DNA of 64,000 nucleotides from Heptranchias perlo (taxonomy: Eukaryota), in the NCBI RefSeq assembly GCF_035084215.1, contig NC_090328.1, forward strand, positions 105,524,001 through 105,588,000, read 5' to 3'. This document shows, piece after piece, positions 4,820 through 58,487 of the stretch. Each line of letters opens with the position of its first letter. The first letter of the stretch is position 1. A program made the position numbers and the translations under genes. Under the pieces are notes generated by a model. The model did not search any database, had not been told where the DNA came from, and saw only the letters and a list, made by a program, of their open reading frames with translations.

Positions 4820-5582
4820 AGTAAATGGTAAAAGGTTGTTTTTCAAACTGGAGGGAAGTATACAGTGGGTCCCCCAGGGGCCAGTATTAGGATCACTGCT
4901 CTTTTCGATTTATTTAAAGACCTGGACTTGGGTATACAGGACATAATTTCAAAGTTTGCAGATGGCACAAAACTCAGAAATGTAGTAAACAGTGAGGGGG
5001 ATAGTAGCAGACTTCAGGAGGACATAGACAGACTAGAGAAATGGGCAGGCACATGGCAGATGAAATTTAATGCAGAGAAGTGTGAAGTGATACATTTTGA
5101 AATACAATTTTAAAGGGGGTGCAGGAACAGAGAGCCCTGGGGGTTCACATACACAAATCTTTGAAGGTGGCAGGACAAGCTGATAAAGCTTTTAAAAAAA
5201 CGATGGGATCATTGGCTTTATAAATAGATGTGGAGATGCCGGTGATGGACTGGGGTTAACAATTGTAAACAATTTTACAACACCAAGTTATAGTCCAACG
5301 ATTTTATTTTTAATCCCACAAGCTTTCGAGGGCTTTCCCCTTCCTCAGGCGGTTTCCCCTTCCCCGCCTGAGGAAGGGGAAAGCCCCCGAAAGCTTGTGG
5401 GATTAAAAATAAAATCGTTGGACTATAACTTGGTGTTGTAAAATTGTTTACAATTTATAAATAGAGGCATAGAGTACAAAAGCAAGCAAATTATGCTAAG
5501 CCTTTATAAGTCATTGGTTAGGCCTCAGCTGAAGTATCTGAGCAATTCTGGGCACCACACTTTAGGAAGGATGTCAAGGCCT
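4820..5582 (+). mobile_element. CR1 LINE RT fragment, interrupted by a Penelope-type insert
   Basis: ISKFADGTKL...WQMKFNAEKCEVIHF; LYKSLVRPQLKY. Confidence 0.9.
5229..5453. mobile_element. Palindromic Penelope-type terminal-repeat insertion with a hammerhead motif in each arm
   Basis: Inverted arms; 12-bp TSD TTTATAAATAGA (5217-5228 and 5454-5465); CTGAGGA-A-GGGG-AAAGC-CCCC-GAAA-GCTT at 5368-5396. Confidence 0.85.
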
Positions 5583-13994: not shown

Positions 13995-15115
13995 TATGTG
14001 GCGCCTTTTGAAAATTCAAATATACTGGTTCTCTTTTATCTACCCTGTTAGTTACAGCCCAGGCCCACCTGTTCTTTTTCTAATTCAACACTGAAAAATC
14101 AGCAGTATTCCAATAACAGAATAAAACTCTATAACAGTCTTCACTGGTTCTCTTTTATCTACCCTGTTAGTTACATCCTCAAAAAACTCTGATAAATTTG
14201 TCAGACACGATTTCCCTTTCATAAAGCCATGTTGACTCTGCCGAATCATATGATTTTCTAAATGCCCTGTTACCACTTCCTTAATAATGGAGTCTAGCAC
14301 TTTCCTGATGACTGATTTCAGACTAACTGACTTGTAGTTCCCTGTTTTCTCTCTCCCTCCCTTCTTGAATAGCGGGGTAACATTTGCTACCTTCCAATCC
14401 ACTGGGACCGTTCTAGAATCTAGAGAATTTTGGAAGATCATAACCAATGCATCCACTATCTCTGCAGCCACCTCTTTTAGAACCCTCGGATGTAGGCCAA
14501 CAGGTCCAGGGAATTTGTTGGCTTTTAGTCCCATTAGTTTGTCCAGTACTTTTCCTCTAGTTCTCACTCTCATTTATCCCTTGATTCCCCACTATTTTTG
14601 GTATGGTTTTTGTGTCTTCTACTGTGAAGACAGATACAAAATATTTGTTTAAAGTCTGCCATTTCCTGATTCCCCATTATAATTTCGCCTGCCTCAGCCT
14701 CTAAGGGACCAACATTACTTTTGCTACTCTCTTCCTTTTTATATATTTGTAGAAGCTCTTACAATCCATTTTTATATTTCTTGCTAGTTTACTTTCACAT
14801 TCTATTTTCTCCCTTTTTATCAATTTTTTAGTCGTCCTTTGTTGGTTTCTAAAACTCTCCCAATCCCCAGGCTTATTACTCTTCTTGGCAACATTATAAG
14901 CCTCTTCTTTCAATCTAATACTCTCCTTAACTTCTTTAGTTAGCCATTGGTGGGTCACTCTTCCCATGGAGTTTTTATTTTTAAATGGAATGTATATTTG
15001 TTGAGGATATTGAAATATTTCTTTAAATGTTTGCCATTGCTTTTCAACTGTCAAACCTTTTAATTTAGTTTCCCAATCTACCTTTGACAACTCATCCCTC
15101 ATACCTATGTAATTG
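13995..15115 (-). mobile_element. CR1 LINE ORF2 internal fragment
   Basis: ORFs 14085-14573 (QHGFMKGKSCLTNL) and 14701-15132. Confidence 0.9.
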
Positions 15116-15121
15116 TCTGTA

Positions 15122-16310
15122 ACTGCAGACAAGTATTATTCACCAGTATAATGCATCATTGCAGACCAGTATTATCCACTAGTATAATGCACCATTGCAG
15201 ACCAGTATTATCCACCAGTATAATGCACCATTACAGACCAGTATTATCCACCAGAATAATGCACCATTGCAGACCAGTATTATCCACCAGTATAATGCAC
15301 TATTACAGACCAGTATTATCCACCAGTTTAATGCACCATTGGCGACCAGTATTATCTACCAGTATAACACATCATTACAGACCAGTATTATCCACCAGTA
15401 TAGTGCACCATTGGTGACCAGTATTATCTACCAGTATAACACATCATTACAGACCAGTATTATCCACCAGTATAGTGCACCATTGGTGACCAGTATTATC
15501 TACCAGTATAACACATCATTACAGACCAGTATTATCCACCAGTATAGTGCACCATTGCAGACCAGTATTATCCACCAGAATAATGCACCATTGCAGACCA
15601 GTATTATCCACCAGTATAATGCACTATTACAGACCAGTATTATCCACCAGTATAATGCACCATTGCAGACCAGTATTATCCACCAGTTTAATGCACCATT
15701 GCAGACCAGTATTATCTACCAGTATAACACATCATTACAGACCAGTATTATCCACCAGTATAGTGCACCATTGCAGACCAGTATTATCTACCAGTATAAA
15801 GCACCATTGCAGTATTATCACCAGTATTATGCACCACAAAACTCTAGGATTATGCACCACGACACAGCACCATTGCACACCCGTATTGTTCAGCAGCATA
15901 ATGCGACGCTGCACACCAGTATTATTTACAAGTATAGTGCTCCATTGCAGACCAGTATTATCCACCACTATAATGTATGACAGCACACCAGTACTATGCA
16001 CCATTATAATGCAGCACTGCACACTAGTATTATCCGCTAATATTATGCACCATTACATACTAGTATTATCACCAGTATTACGCACCACAGTACTCTAGGA
16101 TTATCCACCACATCACAGCAGTATTATCCACCAGTATAATGCTCTATTGCACACCAATATTATCCACCATTATAACACACCACTGCACACCAGTATTATC
16201 CACCAGTATAATAACCACTATACCAGTATTTGGCACCAGTATTACAAAGCAGTATTGTAAAAGAATAGTAAAGACCACAACAAACCAATATTATAGACCA
16301 GTATAATGCA
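15122..16310. repeat. 36-bp minisatellite (CCAGTATTATCCACCAGTATAATGCACCATTGCAGA), degenerating rightwards
   Basis: 12-aa periodicity in the overlapping ORFs; direct inspection. Confidence 0.95.
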
Positions 16311-30362: not shown

Positions 30363-31782
30363 TAAGTTATAGAACCAGGGTTCTGGCCATTTATTAAATC
30401 ATATTTTAAATCCAATAACCCCAAGAAAGAACTGTACTGTTTGGCAAGCTTGTGGGAGTGGCTTAGGGAATAGGATTGACTGGCAGGAGTTTCGAGCCAG
30501 GCTAACCTGACTAAGGTGCTTTCATATACAAACGGACATTTCACACTGACAGGCTGGGTGGAAGGGAACCCAGGCCGATTGACGTCATCACCATTTAACA
30601 TGATTACTGGGAACAATACCCCGAGAGGTAACTCAGAGACACTCAGTCCCAACCGAAACTGGTGGAAGGCAGGAGATGGCCGGGCCATTGTCTTCAAGGA
30701 GAGAAGCCAGTTAAGCAAGATCGGTTTGAGATCAAAACCCATTACCTGCTAATGGGGGCCATCAACTCAGGAAACGACAGATACCCAGTAATCAGCACCC
30801 ATTGTCTCTCCAGTTGCAAGGCCTGGGAGCGGGAAAACGAAATAGCATTTTTCACAAAGATTTCAAAGGTTATGAGTCACTCCTGGCCCCAGGGGGGGTG
30901 GGGGGGTGTCCAGACAGATCACCTGAGTCAATGCATCGATCAGTATTGGTGGGAGAAAAGGTGATGGGTTTTGGGGATATGAGGAGCCGTGTGGCAATGG
31001 TTCCTTGCTCGGCTCAGCTCTCTGCTGTCTGCTCTGCGCTCTGCTCTCTTCTCTCTTCTCCTCGGCATTAATCTACAGTGAGTCTCCAGAGTGGGGCTCA
31101 GCTCGATTCAATGGAACACCGCCAGAAGCTGAGCGCTGCTCTTCATCCCTCATCAACGGACCTCGACTCAAACTGGATCTTGGATACTGCTTCGGCAGTA
31201 CGGAACCAGGAGCGAGACGTGCAGGAAGAAACTGCAAGCAAAACAATGGGCAATCGGAGTGAGCATATTGCCTGTGCCTACACATCCACAAGACCACTTA
31301 GCTGTGTGAGGGGGTGATTGTAAGTCCCAACCAAACCTTAGACGGTTTTAGTGCTGGGGGGGGTCCTGCGTTAGTTTATTTTACGGGTGGGTTCTCATAT
31401 TAGGCCGTGGTAATTTAGTGCGGTAGGGCTTATTGGACAAGCCAGGGTTGTACTGTTTGTACAATGGGTGCTGATTACTGGGTATCTGTCGTTTCCTGAG
31501 TTGATGGCCCCCATTAGCAGGTAATGGGTTTTGATCTCAAACCGATCTTGCTTAACTGGCTTCTCTCCTTGAAGACAATGGTCTGGCCATCTCCTGCCTT
31601 CCACCAGTTTCGGTTGGGACTGAGTGTCTCTGAGTTACCTCTCGGGGTCTTGTTCCCAGTAATCATGTTAAATGGTGATTACTAGTGTCATAGTTAATCT
31701 TATTAAACACAATACGGTTGAGCCCGAAAACGTGTGTCCGAGTCTGATCTGTCCTTATAATCCCTATAGTTCCAGTACTTAT
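30363..31782. mobile_element. Possible solo LTR / LTR-like repeat containing a long inverted duplication
   Basis: CpG-richer block with TAAGT...ACTTA ends and ATTAAA at 31702; no TSD seen; classification is tentative. Confidence 0.3.
30587..31679. repeat. 219-bp inverted repeat (30587-30805 and 31461-31679), 655-bp spacer
   Basis: Arms are reverse complements with 3 mismatches by manual comparison; mirrored ORFs 30662+ and 31604-. Confidence 0.95.
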
Positions 31783-40530: not shown

Positions 40531-41524
40531 AGCTTTCAGTTCTTCACTGTAGCATGAATTTGGGAGGGACTATTGCTGTAACTGTTGTCATCTGTGCAAT
40601 TCACTTTAAGAAATGAAATCAGACCTACAGATTTTAGACTACCTGACCCAGCCTGATTAAAACAGTTGGGCCACTTGCCACTTGGGTTCACTTACTATGG
40701 TCAGTCATACAGATTTCCTGTGAATCTCAGTGTAAACTCTCCTGGGCTTGCGAATTATATTTGCCCTACTACCAGGCCCCGCAGAAAAAGTCTGGAGCAT
40801 TTGTAACCTTGCAGTTTCCTTCATAAATTTTCTATTACCAGCTGTGAGCAAAAAAAATACTTCAGGATATAAATAATGCCCTTTTGCCAAAATGAGGACA
40901 CTTTTTTTTGTCTCAGTGTTCTCCCGAGATCCCTTGACTTCAGCCCAGCTATTGCACCCTGGTCACCTTCAAATGTTAAAGACCAGAAACTATTTAATAT
41001 AACGTCAGCCACACAGATGTGATCCTTATATAAATTTATAGCTACAAGCCAGATCCCTTCATGGAATAAAACATGACAACTAATTTAATCCATGTGTAAT
41101 AGGATTTCTTTGCGGATCAATGGGCTTATAGTACCCTCTTTCTGGCTGTTTATTCTATATTCAAAGGTAAAATTGCTCCTGCCTTTTTTAGATTAATCAT
41201 TAATTCTGATTATTTTCTTTTAGAATTCAGAAATGCCTACATTAAGTTATTTAAGCGCTCTGAGTCATCTTTCAGGATGTAATCAGCACCATTTAAAAAT
41301 AAGTTGTTATTGTATTTGCTTTTAAAGCAGACCAAGTTCATCGAGGCTGATGGAACCAGAATACATATAACTGGCATTGAATTCACAAGTAGGTCACTGA
41401 GAAAGAAACACTGGATGGTGCAGTTCTAATGCATAGAGTTCAGCTCACATGTCTCCATCTGCCAATGAAATTGTTAATATCAGAAAATAGCTACTGGACC
41501 TTTGGCTCTTTTCCAACATTAGAA

Positions 41525-41928
41525 ATATGATGTGAGACTACGTCTTCCATATGATGTGAGACTACCTCTTTCATATGGTGTGAGACTACTTCTTCCATAT
41601 GATGCAAGACTACCTCTTCCATAAGATGTGAGACTACCTCTTCTATATGATGTGAGACTACTTCTTTCATATGGTGTGAGACTACCTCTTCCATAAGATG
41701 TGAGACTACCTCTTCTATATGATGTGACACTACTTCTTCTATATGATGTGAGACTACTTCTTCCATGTGATGTATGACTACTTCTTCCATATGATGTGAG
41801 ACGACCTCTTCTATATGATGTGACACTACCTCTTCTATATGATGTGAGACCACTTCTTCTATATGATGTGAGACTACTTCTTCCATATGATGTGAGACTA
41901 CCTCTTCTATATGATGAGACTACCTCTT
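41525..41928. repeat. 24-bp minisatellite (ATATGATGTGAGACTACCTCTTCT), left block
   Basis: 8-aa periodicity HHMEEVVS. Confidence 0.95.
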
Positions 41929-43220
41929 ACATAGAAACATAGAAACATAGAAAATAGGAGCAGGAGTAGGTCATTCGGCCCTTTGAGCCTGCTCGCCATT
42001 CAATATGATCATGGGTGATCCTCTATCTCAATACCATATTACCGCGCTCTCCCCATACCCTTTGATGCCTTTTGGGTCTAGAAATCTATCTAGCTTCTTC
42101 TTAAATATATTTAGTGACTTAGCCTCCACAGCCTTCTGTGGTAAAGAATTCCACAGGTTCACCACCCTCTGAGTGAAGAAATTTCTCCTCATCTCAGTCC
42201 TAAATGTCCTACCCTTATCCTGAGACGGTGACCCATTGTTCTGGACCCCCCAGCCAGAGGAAACATCATCGCTGCATCCAGTCTGTCTAGCCCTGTCAGA
42301 ATTTTATATGCTTCAATGAGATCCCCTCTCATTCTTCTAAACTCGAGTGAATACAGGCCGAGTCGACTCAATCTCTCCTCATATGACGGTCCTACCATCC
42401 CAGGGATCAGTCTGGTGAACCTTCGCTGCACTCCCTCTATGGCAAGTATATCCTTTCTTAGGTAAAGAAACCAAAACTACACACAATACTCCATGTGTGG
42501 TCTCACCAAGGCCCTATATAACTGCAGTAAGACATCCTTGCTCCTATACTCAAATCCTCTTGCAATGAAGGCCAACATACCATTTGCCTTCCGAACTGCT
42601 TGCTGCACCTGCATGTTTGCTTTCAGTGACTGGTATACAAGAACACCCAGGTCCCTTTGTACATCAACATTTCCCAATCTATCACCATTTAAATAATACT
42701 CTGCCTCTCTGTTTTTCCTTCCAAAGTGGATAACTTCACATTTATCCACATTATACTGCATCTGCCATGTATTTGCCCACTCACTCAACTTCTCTAAATT
42801 GCCTTGAAGCCTCTTTGCATCCTCCTCACGACTCATGATCCCACCTAGTTTTGTGTTGTCAGCAAACTTGGAAATATTACATTTGGTTCCCTCATCCAAA
42901 TCATTGATATATATTGTGAATAGCTGGGGCCCAAGCACTGATCCCTGCGGTACCCCACTAGTCACTGCCTGACACCACAAAAAATACCCATTTATTCCTA
43001 CTCTCTGTTTCCTGTCTGTTAACCAATTTTCAATCCATGCCAATACATTACCACCAATCCCATGTGCTTTAATTTTGCACACTAACCTCTTATGTGGGAC
43101 TTTATCAAAGGCCTTCTGAAAATCCAAATAAACCACATGCACTGGTTCTCCCTTATCTATTCTACCAGTTACATCCTCAAAAAAGTCCAGTAGGTTTGTC
43201 AAACATGATTTCCCTTTCAT
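41928..43220 (-). mobile_element. CR1 LINE 3' part inserted into the 24-bp minisatellite
   Basis: KGKSCLTNLL...YLDFQKAFDKVPH...KFADNTKL; (CATAGAAA)n tail. Confidence 0.95.
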
Positions 43221-43765
43221 ATGATGTACAACTACCTCTCCCATATGATGTGAGACTACTTCTTCCATATGATGTGAGACTACTTCTTCCATATGATGTA
43301 CAACTACCTCTTCCATATGATGTGAGTCTACTTCTTCCATGTGATGTGAGACTACCTCTTTCATATGATGTGAGACTACTTCTTCCATATGATGTGAGAT
43401 TACTTCTTCCATGTGATGTGAGACTACCTCTTTCATATGATGTGAGACTACATCTTCCATATGATGTGAGATTACTTCTTCCATGTGATGTATGACTACT
43501 TCTTCCATATGATGTGAGATTACCTCTTCTATATGATGTGAGACTACCTCTTCTATATGATGTGACACTACCTCTTCCATATGATGTGAGACTATTTCTT
43601 CCATATGATGTGAGACTACCTCTTTCATATGATGTGGGACTACCTCTTCCACATAATGTGAGACTACCTCTTCTATATAATGTAAGATTACCTCTTCTAT
43701 ATGATGTAAGACTGCCTCGTCTATATGATGTAAGACTACCTCTTCTATATGATGTAAGATTACCT
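43219..43765. repeat. 24-bp minisatellite, right block
   Basis: Same unit as 41525-41928. Confidence 0.95.
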
Positions 43766-46607
43766 ACAAAAAGGGGGCAAGCACTTTGATGGGAGTGTAC
43801 TATAGGCCCCCAAACAGTCAGGGGGAGATAGAGGAACAGATATGTAGGCAAATCTCAGAAAATTGTGCAAATAATAGGGTAATAATAGTGGGGGATTTCA
43901 ACTTCCCCAATATTAACTGGGATACTCAGAGTGTAAAAGGCTTAGAGGGTACAAAATTCTTAACGTGCATCCAGGAGAGCTTTTTGAGCCAGCATGTAGA
44001 AAGTCCTACAAGAGAGGGGGCGGTACTGGACCTAATTCTAGGGAATGTGGCCAGCCAAGTGGAAGAAGTGCTAGTAGGTGAGCACTTTGGTGACAGTGAC
44101 CATAATTTGGTGAGATTTAAGGTGGTCATGGAAAAGGACAGGGAGGGGGCGGAAATAAAGGTTCTAAATTGGGGGAAGGCCGATTTTAATAGGATAAGGC
44201 AGGATCTGGCCAAAATGGACTGGGATCAGCTGCTTGTAGGAAAATCCGCATCGGAGCAATGGGAGTCTTTCAGAAGGGAGATTGAGACCATACAATGGCA
44301 ACATGTTCCCGTAAAGGTCAAGGATGGTTCCAAGAACTCCAGGGAATCTTGGATGTCAGGGGATATACGAGAATGGATTAGGAAAAAAAGGAGGGCTTTT
44401 GGCAGATACAAAAGGCTAAAGACGGAGGAAGCCCTAGAGGAGTACAAAAAGTGCAGGGGGATACTTAAAAGTGAAATTAGGAGATCAAGGAGGGGCCATG
44501 AAATAACACTGGCGAGCAAAATAAAGGAAAATCCTAAGATGTTTTATAAGTATATTAAGGGTAAGAGGATGACTAGGGAAAAAATAGGGCCCATTAGGGA
44601 CAAAAATGGCAATCTGTGTGTGGAGCCGGCAGATGTAGGAGGGGTTCTAAATGAATTTTTTGCATCTGTTTTCACTATGGAGAAGGACGATGTAGACATA
44701 GAAATACGGCAGGGGGACTGTGATATACTCGAACATATTAACATCGAGCGGGAGGAGGTATTGGCGGTTTTAGCAGGCCTAAAAATGGATAAATCCCCAG
44801 GCCCGGACGAAATGTATCCCAGGCTACTGTGTGAGGCAAAGGAGGAGATTGCGGGGGCTCTGTCACATATATTCAGAACCTCTCTGGCCACAGGGGATGT
44901 CAATTGTAAACAATTTTACAACACCAAGTTATAGTCCAGCAATTTTATTTTAAATTCACAAGCTTTCGGAGATTTTCTCCTTCCTCAGGCAAAAGTTGAA
45001 ACATTTGCCTGAGGAAGGAGAAAATCTCCGAAAGCTTGTGAATTTAAAATAAAATTGCTGGACTATAACTTGGTGTTGTAAAATTGTTTACAATTGTCAA
45101 CCCCAGTCCATCACCGGCATCTCCACATCACAGGGGATGTGCCAGAGGACTGGAGAACCGCTAATGTAATACCATTATTCAAGAAGGGGAGTAGGGAAAA
45201 ACCGGGGAACTAAAGGCCAGTGAGCCTAACATCAGTGGTAGGAAAATTATTGGAAAAAATTCTGAAGGACAAAATTAGTCTCCACTTGGAGAAGCAAGGA
45301 TTAATCAGGGATAGTCAACATGGCTTTGTCAAGGGAAGATCATGTCTGACTAATTTGATTGAATTTTTTGAGGGGGTGACTAGGCGTGTGGATGAGGGTA
45401 ACGCAGTGGATGTGGTATACATGGATTTCAGTAAGGCCTTCGATAAAGTCCCCCACAGGAGACTGGTCAAGAAGGTACGAGCCCATGGAATCCAGGGTGC
45501 CTTGGCACTTTGGATACAAAACTGGCTTAGTGGCAGAAGGCAGAGGGTGATGGTCGAAGGTTGTTTTTGTGACTGGAAGCCTGTGGCCAGTGGGGTACCA
45601 CAGGGATCGGTGCTGGGTCCCTTGCTGTTTGTGGTCTACATTAATGACTTGGATATGAATGTAAAAGGTATGATCAGTAAGTTCGCTGATGATACAAAAA
45701 TTGGTAGGGTGGTAAATAGCGAGGAGGATAGCCTCAGTCTGCAGGACGATATAGATGGGTTGGTCAGATGGGCGGAACAGTGGCAAATGGAATTTAACCC
45801 GGAAAAGTGCGAGGTGATGCACTTTGGAGGGACTAACAAGGCAAGGGAATACACAATGAATGGGAGGACCCTAGGCAAGACAGAGGGTCAGAGGGATCTT
45901 GGTGTGCAAGTTCACAGATCCCTGAAGGCGGCGGAACAGGTAGATAAGGTGGTAAAGAAGGCATATGGGATACTTGCCTTTATTAGCCGAGGCATAGAAT
46001 ATAAGAGCAAGGAGGTTATGATGGAGCTGTATAAAACACTGGTTAGGCCACAGCTGGAGTACTGTGTGCAGTTCTGGTCGCCACACTACAGGAAGGATGT
46101 GATCGCTTTGGAGAGGGTGCAGAGGAGATTCACCAGGATGTTACCAGGGCTGGAGCGCTTCAGCTATGAAGAGAGACTGGGAAGATTGGGTTTGTTTTCC
46201 TTGGAGCAGAGGAGGCTGAGGGGGGACATGATTGAGGTGTACAAAATTATGAGGGGCACAGATAGGATGGATACTAAGGAGCTTTTTCCCTTCGTTGAGG
46301 GTACTATAACAAGGGGACATAGATTCAAGGTAAAAGGCGGGAGGTTTAGAGGGGATTTGAGAAAGAACTTTTTCACCCAGAGGGTGGTTGGAGTCTGGAA
46401 CTCACTGCCTGAAAGGGTTGTGGAGGCAGGAACCCTCACAACATTCAAGAAGCATTTGGATGAGCACTTGAAATGCCATAGCATACAAGGCTACGGACCA
46501 AATGCTGGAATATGGGATTAGAGTAGACAGGGCTGATGGCCGGCGCGGACACGATGGGCTGAAGGGCCTCTATCCTTGCTGTATAACTCTATAACTCTAT
46601 AACTCTA
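43766..46607 (+). mobile_element. Young CR1 LINE, ORF2 (part of APE endonuclease plus RT) split by a Penelope-type insert
   Basis: GVYYRPP, VGDFNFP, SDHN endonuclease motifs (43786-44900); 433-aa RT frame 45220-46521; (TATAACTC)n tail; one TAA at 45211. Confidence 0.97.
44901..45128. mobile_element. Palindromic Penelope-type insertion with hammerhead motifs
   Basis: 12-bp TSD CACAGGGGATGT (44889-44900 and 45129-45140); inverted arms; CTGAGGA-A-GGAG-AAAAT-CTCC-GAAA-GCTT. Confidence 0.88.
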
Positions 46608-46727: not shown

Positions 46728-46910
46728 AATAACAACTTGCATTTATACAGCACCTTTAACATAGTAAAACCACCCAAGGCGCTTCACAGGAGCTTTATCA
46801 CACAAAATTTGACACTGAGCCACATAAAGAGATATTAAGACGGGTCACCAAAAGTTTGGTCAAAGAGGTAGGTTTTAAGAAACGTCTTAAAGGAGGGGAG
46901 CCAGAGAGGT
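46728..46910 (-). mobile_element. L2 3' end
   Basis: Reverse complement of 8095-8277. Confidence 0.8.
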
Positions 46911-46919
46911 AACAAGGCT

Positions 46920-47160
46920 AATGCACAGTATATGTGCTATAGTGCACAGTATAGGTGCTATATCATACAATATAGGTGCTATAACACAGAGTATAGGTGT
47001 TATATCGCACAGAACAGGTACTACATTGCACAGCATGGATGCTTTATTGCACAGAATAGCTGCTATAACAAACAGTATAGGTGCTATTGTTCATAGTATA
47101 GGTGCAATAACACCAAGTATAGGTTCTATGATGCCCAGTATAGGTGCCACAGTGCACAAC
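46920..47160. repeat. Degenerate 21-bp tandem repeat (CACAGTATAGGTGCTATAGTG-like)
   Basis: 7-aa periodicity HSIGAIV. Confidence 0.8.
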
Positions 47161-48154
47161 CAGCTCAGAAGACCTACATTAATTTTGCAACAGATGTACA
47201 GAGTCGGAATGGGTTTAAACAATGCACTCTCTACATTGCTGGCCAGTAACATGTAATTGTTGCTAGTGTAAAGCTTCACACTGATTGCAATTTCCAGGTT
47301 CTAATTCCAGAACAATACAATATCATGAATTCAGAAATTAAGTTCTAATTTAGTTCCAGCAAAATGAACAATTGTAGAATCTACCCCATAGGTCACAAAT
47401 GACATTGCCAGATAATTCCAAATAAACCTAGATTCTCCAGATATCTCTTCCTCAGATCTATGTTTCCTGTTAAAACCTGAAAACAACAAACCAATTACTG
47501 GCAAGAGGTTCTTCATAGGTTTTAATAGCTTCAGAGAAATTGATATATAACAAAAAGAAGCAATGTTGTCTAAATTCAAATACATGACCACAGATCGAAT
47601 GCTCTACTTAGATGAATGTGCTCCATCAACATTAGATGACTCTTATACATAAGAGAATTTTGTGTCTAACAATTTATATAGGTTCCCAACTACATTTGGA
47701 GAATTATCCTGCCTGTACTTCACAGCACAAAATGTTGCGATTTAAATGCTTGATCATAAAGATTAAACAGACAACCCTCATCTTTCTCTCTCTGTTGCCT
47801 TCATGTACATAGAACTACTGTTGAGCACAAAGAGACTGAAAGACTATGGGGGTTAAATTGGATAATCCTCGAAAGCATGCACGGGGATCGCGGTCCGCGA
47901 TTAACTCACACCTGTTCATTGCGCTGCAGGCAGTGAGTTAAATTGACGCTACCTGCTGTTTTAAATGATTGTTGCATGCAGCCAGCGCTACCTGTGCTGT
48001 TCATTGGCTGCACGCATCAGCTAGGTTCCTGATCTCACAAGTGACTAGCGCTACTTAAAGGCAGCCTGCACCTCTTAAAGGGGAGGTGCATTGTGGCTGC
48101 AAGAAAGGGTGGAAGTCAATTGTGAAGTGAATCTGTGCTGTAATATATTGAAGA

Positions 48155-54865: not shown

Positions 54866-54956
54866 TTCACCTGACGAAGGAGGAAGCCTCCGAAAGCTTG
54901 TGAATTTAAAATAAAATTGCTGGACTATAACTTGGTGTTGTAAAATTGTTTACAAT
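54866..54956 (+). ncRNA. Solo Penelope-type repeat with a minimal type I hammerhead ribozyme motif
   Basis: TTCAC-CTGACGA-A-GGAG-GAAGC-CTCC-GAAA-GCTT-GTGAA: helix I TTCAC/GTGAA, helix II GGAG/CTCC, palindromic AGCT in place of helix III. Confidence 0.7.
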
Positions 54957-55034
54957 TAATCTATCAAGCCACTGAATTTTAGCTACTTAGATGAGATTAT
55001 ATGGTTAAAATTAGTCTGAATCACAAACACAAAG

Positions 55035-57964: not shown

Positions 57965-58487
57965 GAATATAGGAACAGGAGTAGGCCATTTAGCCCCTCA
58001 GGCCTGCTCCCACGCCATTCAATGAAATCATGATGTGGAGATGCCGGTGATGGACTGGGGTGGACAAATGTAAGGAATCTTACAACACCAGGTTATAGTC
58101 CAACAGTTTTATTTGAAAATCACAAGCTTTCGGAAGCTTTCTCCTTCGTCAGGTGAAAGGAGAAAGGAGGAAGGAGAAAGCCTCCGAAAGCTTGTGATTT
58201 TCAAATAAAACTGTTGGACTATAACCTGGTGTTGTAAGATTCCTTACAATGAAATCATGGCTGATCTGTGACCTAACTCCATATACCTGCCTTAGACCCA
58301 TTTCTCTTAATACCTTTCGTTAACAAAATTCTCAGTCTCAGATTTAAAATTAACAATTGAGCTAGCATCAACTGCCATTTGCAGAAAAGAGTTTCAAATT
58401 TCCACCACCCTTTGCATGTAGAAACGTTTCCTAACTTCACTCCTGCAAGTCCTGGCTCTAATTTTTAGGCTATGTCCATAGTCCTAG
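57965..58487 (-). mobile_element. CR1 3' end
   Basis: Reverse-complement similarity to 32170-32470. Confidence 0.85.
58033..58246. mobile_element. Palindromic Penelope-type insertion (different subfamily) with hammerhead motif
   Basis: 13-bp TSD CAATGAAATCATG (58020-58032 and 58247-58259); the minus arm has a full CTGACGA...GAAAGCTT core, the plus arm has lost CTGA. Confidence 0.85.

What the first reader, a model, noticed from the sequence alone, without database searches (positions are those of the whole stretch)
5217..5465. Palindromic mini-retroelement carrying a hammerhead ribozyme motif on both strands (copy 1)
Seen: a 225-bp insert with a 12-bp TSD, made of two inverted copies of one repeat joined just 5' of a CTGAnGA...GAAA core, so each strand encodes one hammerhead motif. 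Known: Penelope-like elements carry minimal hammerheads in their terminal repeats and often have an inverted repeat at the 5' end. Inference: these are ORF-less units mobilised in trans, either extreme Penelope truncations or a retrozyme-like non-autonomous family.
Basis: partly seen in the sequence, partly recalled or inferred. Interest (0 to 1): 0.7.

Follow-up and report, generated by a model that had tools for sequence, protein, structure and literature searches.

The report
Two-armed Penelope retrotransposon run-off stub
This 225-base mirror-image insert is a short scrap of a very abundant Penelope-like jumping gene, likely made when the element's enzyme copied the first 100-135 letters of its RNA twice, once from each cut DNA strand, so it is likely not a self-copying ribozyme element but a footprint of how these genes build their mirror-image ends.

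Summary
The arm is the pseudo-LTR of an autonomous Penelope-like element in the same genome (3.0-kb unit, intact 891-aa RT/GIY-YIG-type ORF). In a genome-order sample, 47 head-to-head insertions run from 142 to 4,001 bp with mostly unique junctions, so this is not a replicating mini-family or retrozyme. It is not random truncation either: 42 of 43 pairs have exactly one tailed and one tail-less arm, and 29 of 116 arms stop 9-15 nt before the hammerhead core, a point that shifts with a TATA box across subfamilies. Best reading: both nicked target strands prime cDNA at the two internal start sites, the cDNAs run off the RNA 5' end and are joined head to head. The layout is in print; the one-tail rule and the run-off class were not found in six paper searches. 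This scan noted the same thing before in at least 14 other genomes.

The parts
5217..5228 (+). left target-site duplication (12 bp)
   Evidence: identical to 5454-5465; empty site matches other LINE copies
5229..5262 (-). one-sided Penelope 'tail' (AC-rich on the element's sense strand); in full-length copies it runs directly into the ORF's ATG
   Evidence: tail described in PMC3846280, PMC8557442, PMC11167929
5263..5352 (-). tailed arm: pseudo-LTR segment from about -4 to +85 (0 = C of CTGA), continuous with the tail
5324..5348 (-). minimal type I hammerhead core (CTGAGGA ... GAAA); predicted cut between 5320 and 5319
   Evidence: covariation; cut site inferred from hammerhead numbering
5353..5363 (.). 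junction loop; on the - strand it is a copy of 11 letters of the arm itself (templated insert)
   Evidence: similar inserts in other junctions
5364..5453 (+). tail-less arm: second copy of the same pseudo-LTR segment, head to head with the first
5368..5392 (+). minimal type I hammerhead core; predicted cut after 5396
5408..5413 (+). AATAAA hexamer followed by a GT-rich stretch (possible poly(A) signal; untested)
   Evidence: sequence; hexamer present in the arm patterns of all three subfamilies
5454..5465 (+). right target-site duplication (12 bp)
4824..5580 (+). host: decayed LINE RT fragment interrupted by the insert (CR1-like is a recalled label)
   Evidence: tblastn and empty-site alignment
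44890..45130 (+). second palindromic copy, another subfamily, tail on the right
54870..54957 (+). single tail-less arm
58031..58250 (-). third palindromic copy, third subfamily, tail on the left

Best explanation
The insert is a promoterless stub of an autonomous Penelope-like retrotransposon, likely built at the landing site from two short cDNAs that were likely primed on the two nicked target strands and likely ran off the 5' end of the element's RNA. Shown: the arm and tail are the pseudo-LTR of a 3.0-kb element with an intact 891-aa RT ORF; head-to-head insertions of all lengths have one tailed and one tail-less arm and an 11-14-bp TSD; arm ends pile up 9-15 nt before the hammerhead core. 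Inferred: (1) the endonuclease nicks both strands about 12-13 nt apart; (2) each 3' end primes reverse transcription at one of two internal start points (+121, tail end; +85-90, tail start), as the anole enzyme does in vitro; (3) when priming happens on the 5' pseudo-LTR both cDNAs run off at the transcription start, about 27-30 nt below a TATA box; (4) end joining with trimming, microhomology or short templated inserts fuses the two cDNA ends. The stub lacks the TATA box and its ribozyme motifs are predicted to be locked in the hairpin, so it is likely a dead end. Odds by step: stub of the autonomous element made anew each time 0.93; twin priming 0.75; stop point = RNA start 0.65.
For: Partner: same 38-mer lies ~230 nt after an ORF end in long head-to-head copies and 122 nt before the ATG in full-length ones; intact 891-aa ORF in L285, RVT_1 E 1.6e-10, CX4CX2C linker and VVY...YIG motif. 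Continuum: 47 pairs from the first 100 genome-order matches span 142-4,001 bp, 21 at 190-260 bp. One-tail rule: 42 of 43 pairs with both 3' ends readable (p 5e-12 against 0.5; 4 more pairs unreadable). TSD 11-14 bp in 39 of 47 pairs. Stop point: 29 of 116 arms end at -15..-9, 16 at -11; none between -53 and -141 with wide gap extension; single arms and two full-length copies (L283, L288) start at the same place. Median end -9, -13, -13, -16.5 for TATA at -38, -39, -40, -46 (n 12, 11, 35, 18; rho 0.32, p 0.003 on 83 arms). Arms of one insertion are closer to each other than to other insertions in 16 of 17 long pairs, sharing 66 minority sites yet differing at 151 of 15,768. PMC11167929: the anole enzyme cuts and extends both strands and starts at two internal sites that bound the tail.
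Against: No RNA 5' ends could be seen: only assembled contigs were offered. No cap-derived extra G: in 7 single arms whose TSD abuts position -13 there is none outside the TSD, and the G in 11 of 14 inverted junctions can mostly be read as the other arm's letter. The TATA test is partly circular because a subfamily can only be assigned from upstream letters that were kept; 34 of 117 arms were ambiguous and left out, and small groups (-44, -47, -42) do not fit. Weak hairpins (-2.5 to -6.1 kcal/mol) lie just upstream of the stop point and could pause RT. D. virilis Penelope has a TATA-less internal promoter (PMC2377424). Shared variants could also come from gene conversion between arms. 75 of 213 arms run past the TATA box, so run-off is one class, not all.
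Confidence: 0.7

Rival explanations
1. Twin priming as above, but the common stop is a reverse-transcriptase pause or a nuclease block at helix I or an upstream hairpin on a longer (tandem or read-through) RNA, not the RNA's start.
For: Hairpins whose 3' base lies at about -8 to -12 in several subfamilies; no cap G; 75 of 213 arms pass the point.
Against: Hairpins are weak and differ between subfamilies, and are weakest (-2.5 to -3.7) in the long-spaced group, whose -46 members still show a sharp edge at -15..-17; the edge keeps about 27-30 nt from a conserved TATA while the sequence between varies.
Confidence: 0.15
2. One cDNA folds back and primes its own second strand (self-priming, as proposed in PMC3846280), giving the palindrome.
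For: Arms share variants; short fold-back-like inserts occur at junctions, including this copy's loop; some junctions are exact palindromes.
Against: Fold-back from a tailed cDNA makes the tailed arm the longer one, and from a tail-less cDNA gives no tail; seen: tail-less arm longer in 26, tailed in 8, equal in 8, and 12 vs 13 among the closest copies. Arms can differ in length by 2 kb, and some pairs hold 240-280 bp of unrelated sequence between them (L050, L244, L258).
Confidence: 0.09
3. A replicating non-autonomous palindromic family or retrozyme that copies itself as a unit.
For: 30 near-identical copies with fixed outer ends; a few simple junctions recur.
Against: Those 30 were picked by likeness to the query; unbiased sets show varied junctions and a size continuum; loop orientation flips relative to the tail; recurrent junctions sit at microhomologies and many lie in one cluster on C9; no tandem units of the stub were seen; no TATA box in the stub; motifs predicted locked.
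Confidence: 0.04
4. Hammerhead self-cleavage creates the short template.
For: A few head-to-head junctions end at the predicted cut (+29) (about 4 of the 50 loci listed).
Against: The main stop lies about 40 nt upstream of the cut, keeping the whole core; about 60 junctions lie near the cut against 194 just above the core, and most of those keep letters upstream of the cut; in the anole element uncut RNA is the main substrate (PMC11167929).
Confidence: 0.02

Closest known systems
Endonuclease-bearing Penelope-like insertions with inverted 5'-truncated pLTR, 30-40-bp tail and TSD (Pen2a_Av, PMC3846280; Fig. 2 of PMC8557442; D. virilis Penelope, PMC2377424)
   Same: Head-to-head inverted pLTR, tail on one end, TSD, partial tandems, palindromic junctions.
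   Different: Here nothing but the two pLTR stumps is present, such stubs are the commonest size class, and their stop point is fixed; PMC3846280 reads the inversion as self-priming on an antisense template, which the arm-length asymmetry here does not favour.
Poseidon of Anolis carolinensis in vitro (PMC11167929)
   Same: Both-strand cutting and extension, two internal RT start sites bounding the tail, AT-rich targets, hammerhead upstream of the start sites.
   Different: That paper does not treat inverted insertions in the parts read; here the ATG follows the tail instead of lying at hammerhead stem II, and the ORF has the Neptune/Nematis-type linker.
Minimal type I hammerheads of metazoan PLEs (PMC4209133)
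   Same: Core, extra base between positions 9 and 10.1, G10.1-C11.1, palindromic 15.2-16.2, 4-5-bp helix I; dual motifs on opposite strands 100-700 bp apart were noted there.
   Different: Here the opposite-strand motifs are 20 bp apart and predicted to be sequestered; activity untested.
Non-LTR retrozymes (PMC7229834, listing only; 10.64898/2026.07.22.740005)
   Same: Short, ORF-less, PLE-derived, type I hammerhead.
   Different: Retrozymes are head-to-tail tandem units; this is a head-to-head single event with a unique junction.
L1 twin priming and retroviral strong-stop DNA (recalled)
   Same: Second primer from the other target strand; short cDNA that runs off the RNA 5' end.
   Different: In L1 twin priming the two cDNAs cover different parts of the RNA; here both cover the same part.

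Membership tests
Endonuclease-bearing Penelope-like element (Neptune-type) | Single ORF with RT domain linked to this repeat | tested here: met
   891-aa ORF in L285, RVT_1 E 1.6e-10; ATG directly after the tail
Endonuclease-bearing Penelope-like element (Neptune-type) | C-terminal GIY-YIG endonuclease | tested here: met
   No Pfam GIY-YIG hit at E<=0.01 for this ORF, but VVY...YIG motif present and the region aligns with the Pfam-positive domain of a second family (33% identity over 766 columns)
Endonuclease-bearing Penelope-like element (Neptune-type) | CX2-5CxxC linker between RT and endonuclease (Neptune/Nematis, PMC8557442) | tested here: met
   CX4CX2C present
Endonuclease-bearing Penelope-like element (Neptune-type) | pLTRs in partial tandem and/or inverted arrangement | tested here: met
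Endonuclease-bearing Penelope-like element (Neptune-type) | 30-40-bp tail at one end | tested here: met
   42 of 43 pairs
Endonuclease-bearing Penelope-like element (Neptune-type) | RT phylogeny placing it in Neptune rather than Nematis | not tested
   no reference PLE proteins were fetched
Minimal type I hammerhead | Core plus extra base at 9/10.1, G10.1-C11.1, palindromic 15.2-16.2 | tested here: met
   (core columns were fixed by the search expression, so their invariance is not independent)
Minimal type I hammerhead | Helices I and II supported by covariation | tested here: met
   13 recurrent variants: helix I pair 4 C-G 5, U-A 6, U-G 2; helix II pair 3 G-C 5, A-U 7, G-U 1; helix II pair 5 is an A-C mismatch in 5
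Minimal type I hammerhead | Self-cleavage (dimer or protein-assisted) | not testable with these tools
   folding predicts low helix probability for the monomer (0.02-0.26) and 0.0 in the full hairpin
Non-LTR retrozyme | Head-to-tail tandem units each with a hammerhead | tested here: not met
   stubs are single head-to-head events with their own TSD
Non-LTR retrozyme | Unit copied as such (fixed internal structure) | tested here: not met
   junctions vary, loop flips, sizes continuous
Non-LTR retrozyme | Circular RNA intermediate | not testable with these tools
   no raw RNA reads offered
MITE / fold-back DNA transposon | Symmetric terminal inverted repeats with a transposase partner | tested here: not met
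   ends are asymmetric (tail) and the partner is an RT ORF

The most novel reading that the evidence does not exclude
Penelope-like elements make a strong-stop cDNA like retroviruses. If the AATAAA signal in the arm cuts the mRNA before the 3' tail, the only RT start sites on the mRNA are in the 5' pseudo-LTR; every insertion would begin as a 100-135-nt run-off cDNA, long copies would need a template jump through the repeated -13..+60 region, and the palindromic stubs would be double failures of that jump. This would explain pseudo-LTRs, tails and inverted ends in one scheme.
Probability: 0.2. Interest if true: 0.78.

Novelty: new variant of a known kind. Interest (0 to 1): 0.44.

Why it matters
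How Penelope-like elements, the sister group of telomerase RT, make inverted ends and one-sided tails is open. Tens of thousands of stubs give in vivo statistics that fit the 2024 in vitro result (two start sites, both strands) and predict an RNA start to within a few bases, which CAGE or one reconstitution can test. For annotation: these palindromes look like MITEs or miRNA hairpins (one search gave only sub-threshold miRNA matches) but are retroelement debris.

Tried and rejected
Rfam scan: no hammerhead family; only sub-threshold miRNA hairpin matches. First GIY-YIG search returned a different Penelope-like family that shares no arm or tail sequence. Searching with the DNA upstream of the window's single arm found only an unrelated repeat. 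The apparent fixed junction in L001-L030 was rejected as selection by similarity to the query. Twelve arm ends at -151..-285 were mostly alignment breaks at a microsatellite and shrank to a few. Cap-G test: hand tally of the 100 of 107 matches listed was G 40, A 47, T 13; contexts of 30 gave no support. Expression: no RNA holder listed; contigs laid from 4 of 16 runs cannot show starts or ends. The first TATA expression missed TATAAAT variants and was redone. Look-up of earlier findings by sequence was blank. Repbase and Dfam could not be searched, so the family may already have a name. Supplements of the papers were not read; Fig. S2 of PMC11167929 and the supplementary motif lists of PMC4209133 may bear on novelty.

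Full report
Observation. The insert is 5229-5453 between two copies of TTTATAAATAGA. It has a 34-nt one-sided segment (5229-5262), two 90-nt arms with one mismatch and an 11-nt loop that copies part of the arm. Shuffled windows give inverted arms of only 8-9 nt. It interrupts a decayed LINE RT fragment. The window lies on C4 of a 3.25-Gb genome; 'shark-like' is my recall from its repeats, not a call result.

Hammerhead. Each arm has a CTGAGGA...GAAA core. Rfam does not call it, but it has the features that PMC4209133 lists for minimal type I motifs of Penelope-like elements, and helices I and II covary among 13 recurrent variants from 154 arms. In the full hairpin the helices have predicted probability 0.0.

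Abundance. Exact 34-35-mers of the arm occur 2,237 (this copy's subfamily), 43,843 and 9,378 times, controls 0. In 75 stretches of 10 kb taken at round coordinates there were 25 loci, 11 inverted pairs and 14 single arms or fragments; 6 of the 11 pairs are short. That scales to roughly 100,000 loci and 26,000 short pairs, a rough figure.

Partner. Long head-to-head copies carry on both arms the 3' part of an RT ORF, about 230 nt of UTR, the hammerhead and the arm. Full-length copies have hammerhead, arm and tail directly before the ATG; L285 holds an intact 891-aa ORF with RVT_1, a CX4CX2C linker and a GIY-YIG-type motif. Several are partial tandems. This is the layout described in PMC3846280 and PMC8557442.

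Not a mini-family. The 30 best matches looked fixed at the junction, but they were selected by likeness; even there the loop faces either way relative to the tail (12 vs 13 after removing 3 duplicates; 2 others). The 194 short palindromes of this subfamily show mostly different junctions in the 50 listed. From the first 100 genome-order matches (68 merged regions; arms under 93% identity dropped) I obtained 47 pairs and 22 single arms; pair lengths run from 142 to 4,001 bp.

Rules in the pairs. 42 of 43 readable pairs have one arm ending at +115..+121 and the other at +83..+94; none has two tails. TSDs are 11-14 bp in 39 of 47. The tail-less arm is longer in 26, the tailed in 8, equal in 8 (p 0.003), which simple fold-back does not predict. 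In 16 of 17 long pairs (10 loci had been picked for length) the arms are closer to each other than to other insertions, yet they differ at about 1% of sites: same source RNA or locus, though gene conversion is not excluded. PMC11167929 shows both-strand cutting and extension and two internal start sites that bound the tail; one primer per target strand at each site accounts for all of this. Whether one RNA is copied twice with strand displacement, or two RNAs by a dimer, is not resolved.

The stop point. 29 of 116 arms end at -15..-9 (4.1 per nt against 0.2 or less further upstream), with a gap from -53 to -141. Single arms and two full-length copies start there too. A TATA-like box lies 37-47 nt above the core in all subfamilies while the spacer varies, and the stop point moves with it (loci picked by junction or length were left out; 34 of 117 ambiguous arms dropped; partly circular). 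An initiator-like TCA(C/T)TT places A at -13 in this subfamily (consensus recalled). Against: no cap G, weak upstream hairpins, a TATA-less promoter in D. virilis Penelope, no RNA data. PMC3846280 reports a putative TATA and initiator in a rotifer pLTR. The hammerhead cut site is at most a minor end.

Verdict. A stub of a known kind of element in a known layout; new are the one-tail rule, the arm asymmetry and the run-off class. Searches did not find these in print. What I saw: PMC4209133 parts 1-2 of 4; PMC11167929 parts 1-2 of 4; PMC3846280, PMC8557442, PMC2377424 passages; 10.64898/2026.07.22.740005 part 1 of 5 and passages; PMC7229834 listing only; no supplements. My reading was noted before I saw earlier notes; one search then showed 131 similar notes in at least 14 other genomes, which are not independent support.

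Noticed in passing
L043 (C4:141688000-141697999), L044 (C1:198141000-198150999), L419 (last 10 kb of C4); hits: A second, unrelated Penelope-like family with two intact ORFs (754 aa with no Pfam hit; 744 aa RT + GIY-YIG), its own hammerhead motif and a degenerate TTAGGG tract forms long tandem arrays (unit about 7.7-8.2 kb) near chromosome ends. At the C4 end a 5.6-kb copy sits between a TTAGGG run and the terminal 4.3-kb TTAGGG tract. ORFs point away from the end on C1R, C4R, C5L, C6R, C9R, C20L, C25L, C29L; the C1 array at 0.92-1.02 Mb points the other way; 5 other contig ends checked held no copy in their last 10 kb. Worth its own follow-up.
   Followed up: partly
window 5217-5228; L178, L235; L225, L256, L061: The same target sites in abundant LINE copies are hit repeatedly: TSD TTTATAAATA(GA) in three different loci and ACAAAGATTGGT in three, suggesting preferred AT-rich targets.
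   Followed up: no
L050:660-899; L244; L258: Some head-to-head pairs hold 240-280 bp of unrelated sequence between two arms that both stop at about -11: capture of foreign sequence at the junction.
   Followed up: no
C9:2.24-3.42 Mb: Nine copies with the same microhomology junction cluster here, probably carried by a segmental or tandem duplication.
   Followed up: no
L028: A short palindrome whose one arm runs through the tail into the ORF start, with tails on both sides.
   Followed up: no
window 5348-5353 (+ strand 5345-5353) and equivalent sites: The antisense strand at the hammerhead's 5' edge reads like a splice donor (CAG GTGAGT / GTAAAT in other subfamilies); may only reflect helix I constraints.
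   Followed up: no
window 15020-16141, 41405-43734, 46898-47179: Minisatellites with 36-, 24- and 21-nt periods, two of them inside LINE-derived sequence.
   Followed up: no
window 30584-31682: A 222-nt inverted repeat pair, 98% complementary, 655 nt apart; not part of this family by blastn.
   Followed up: no
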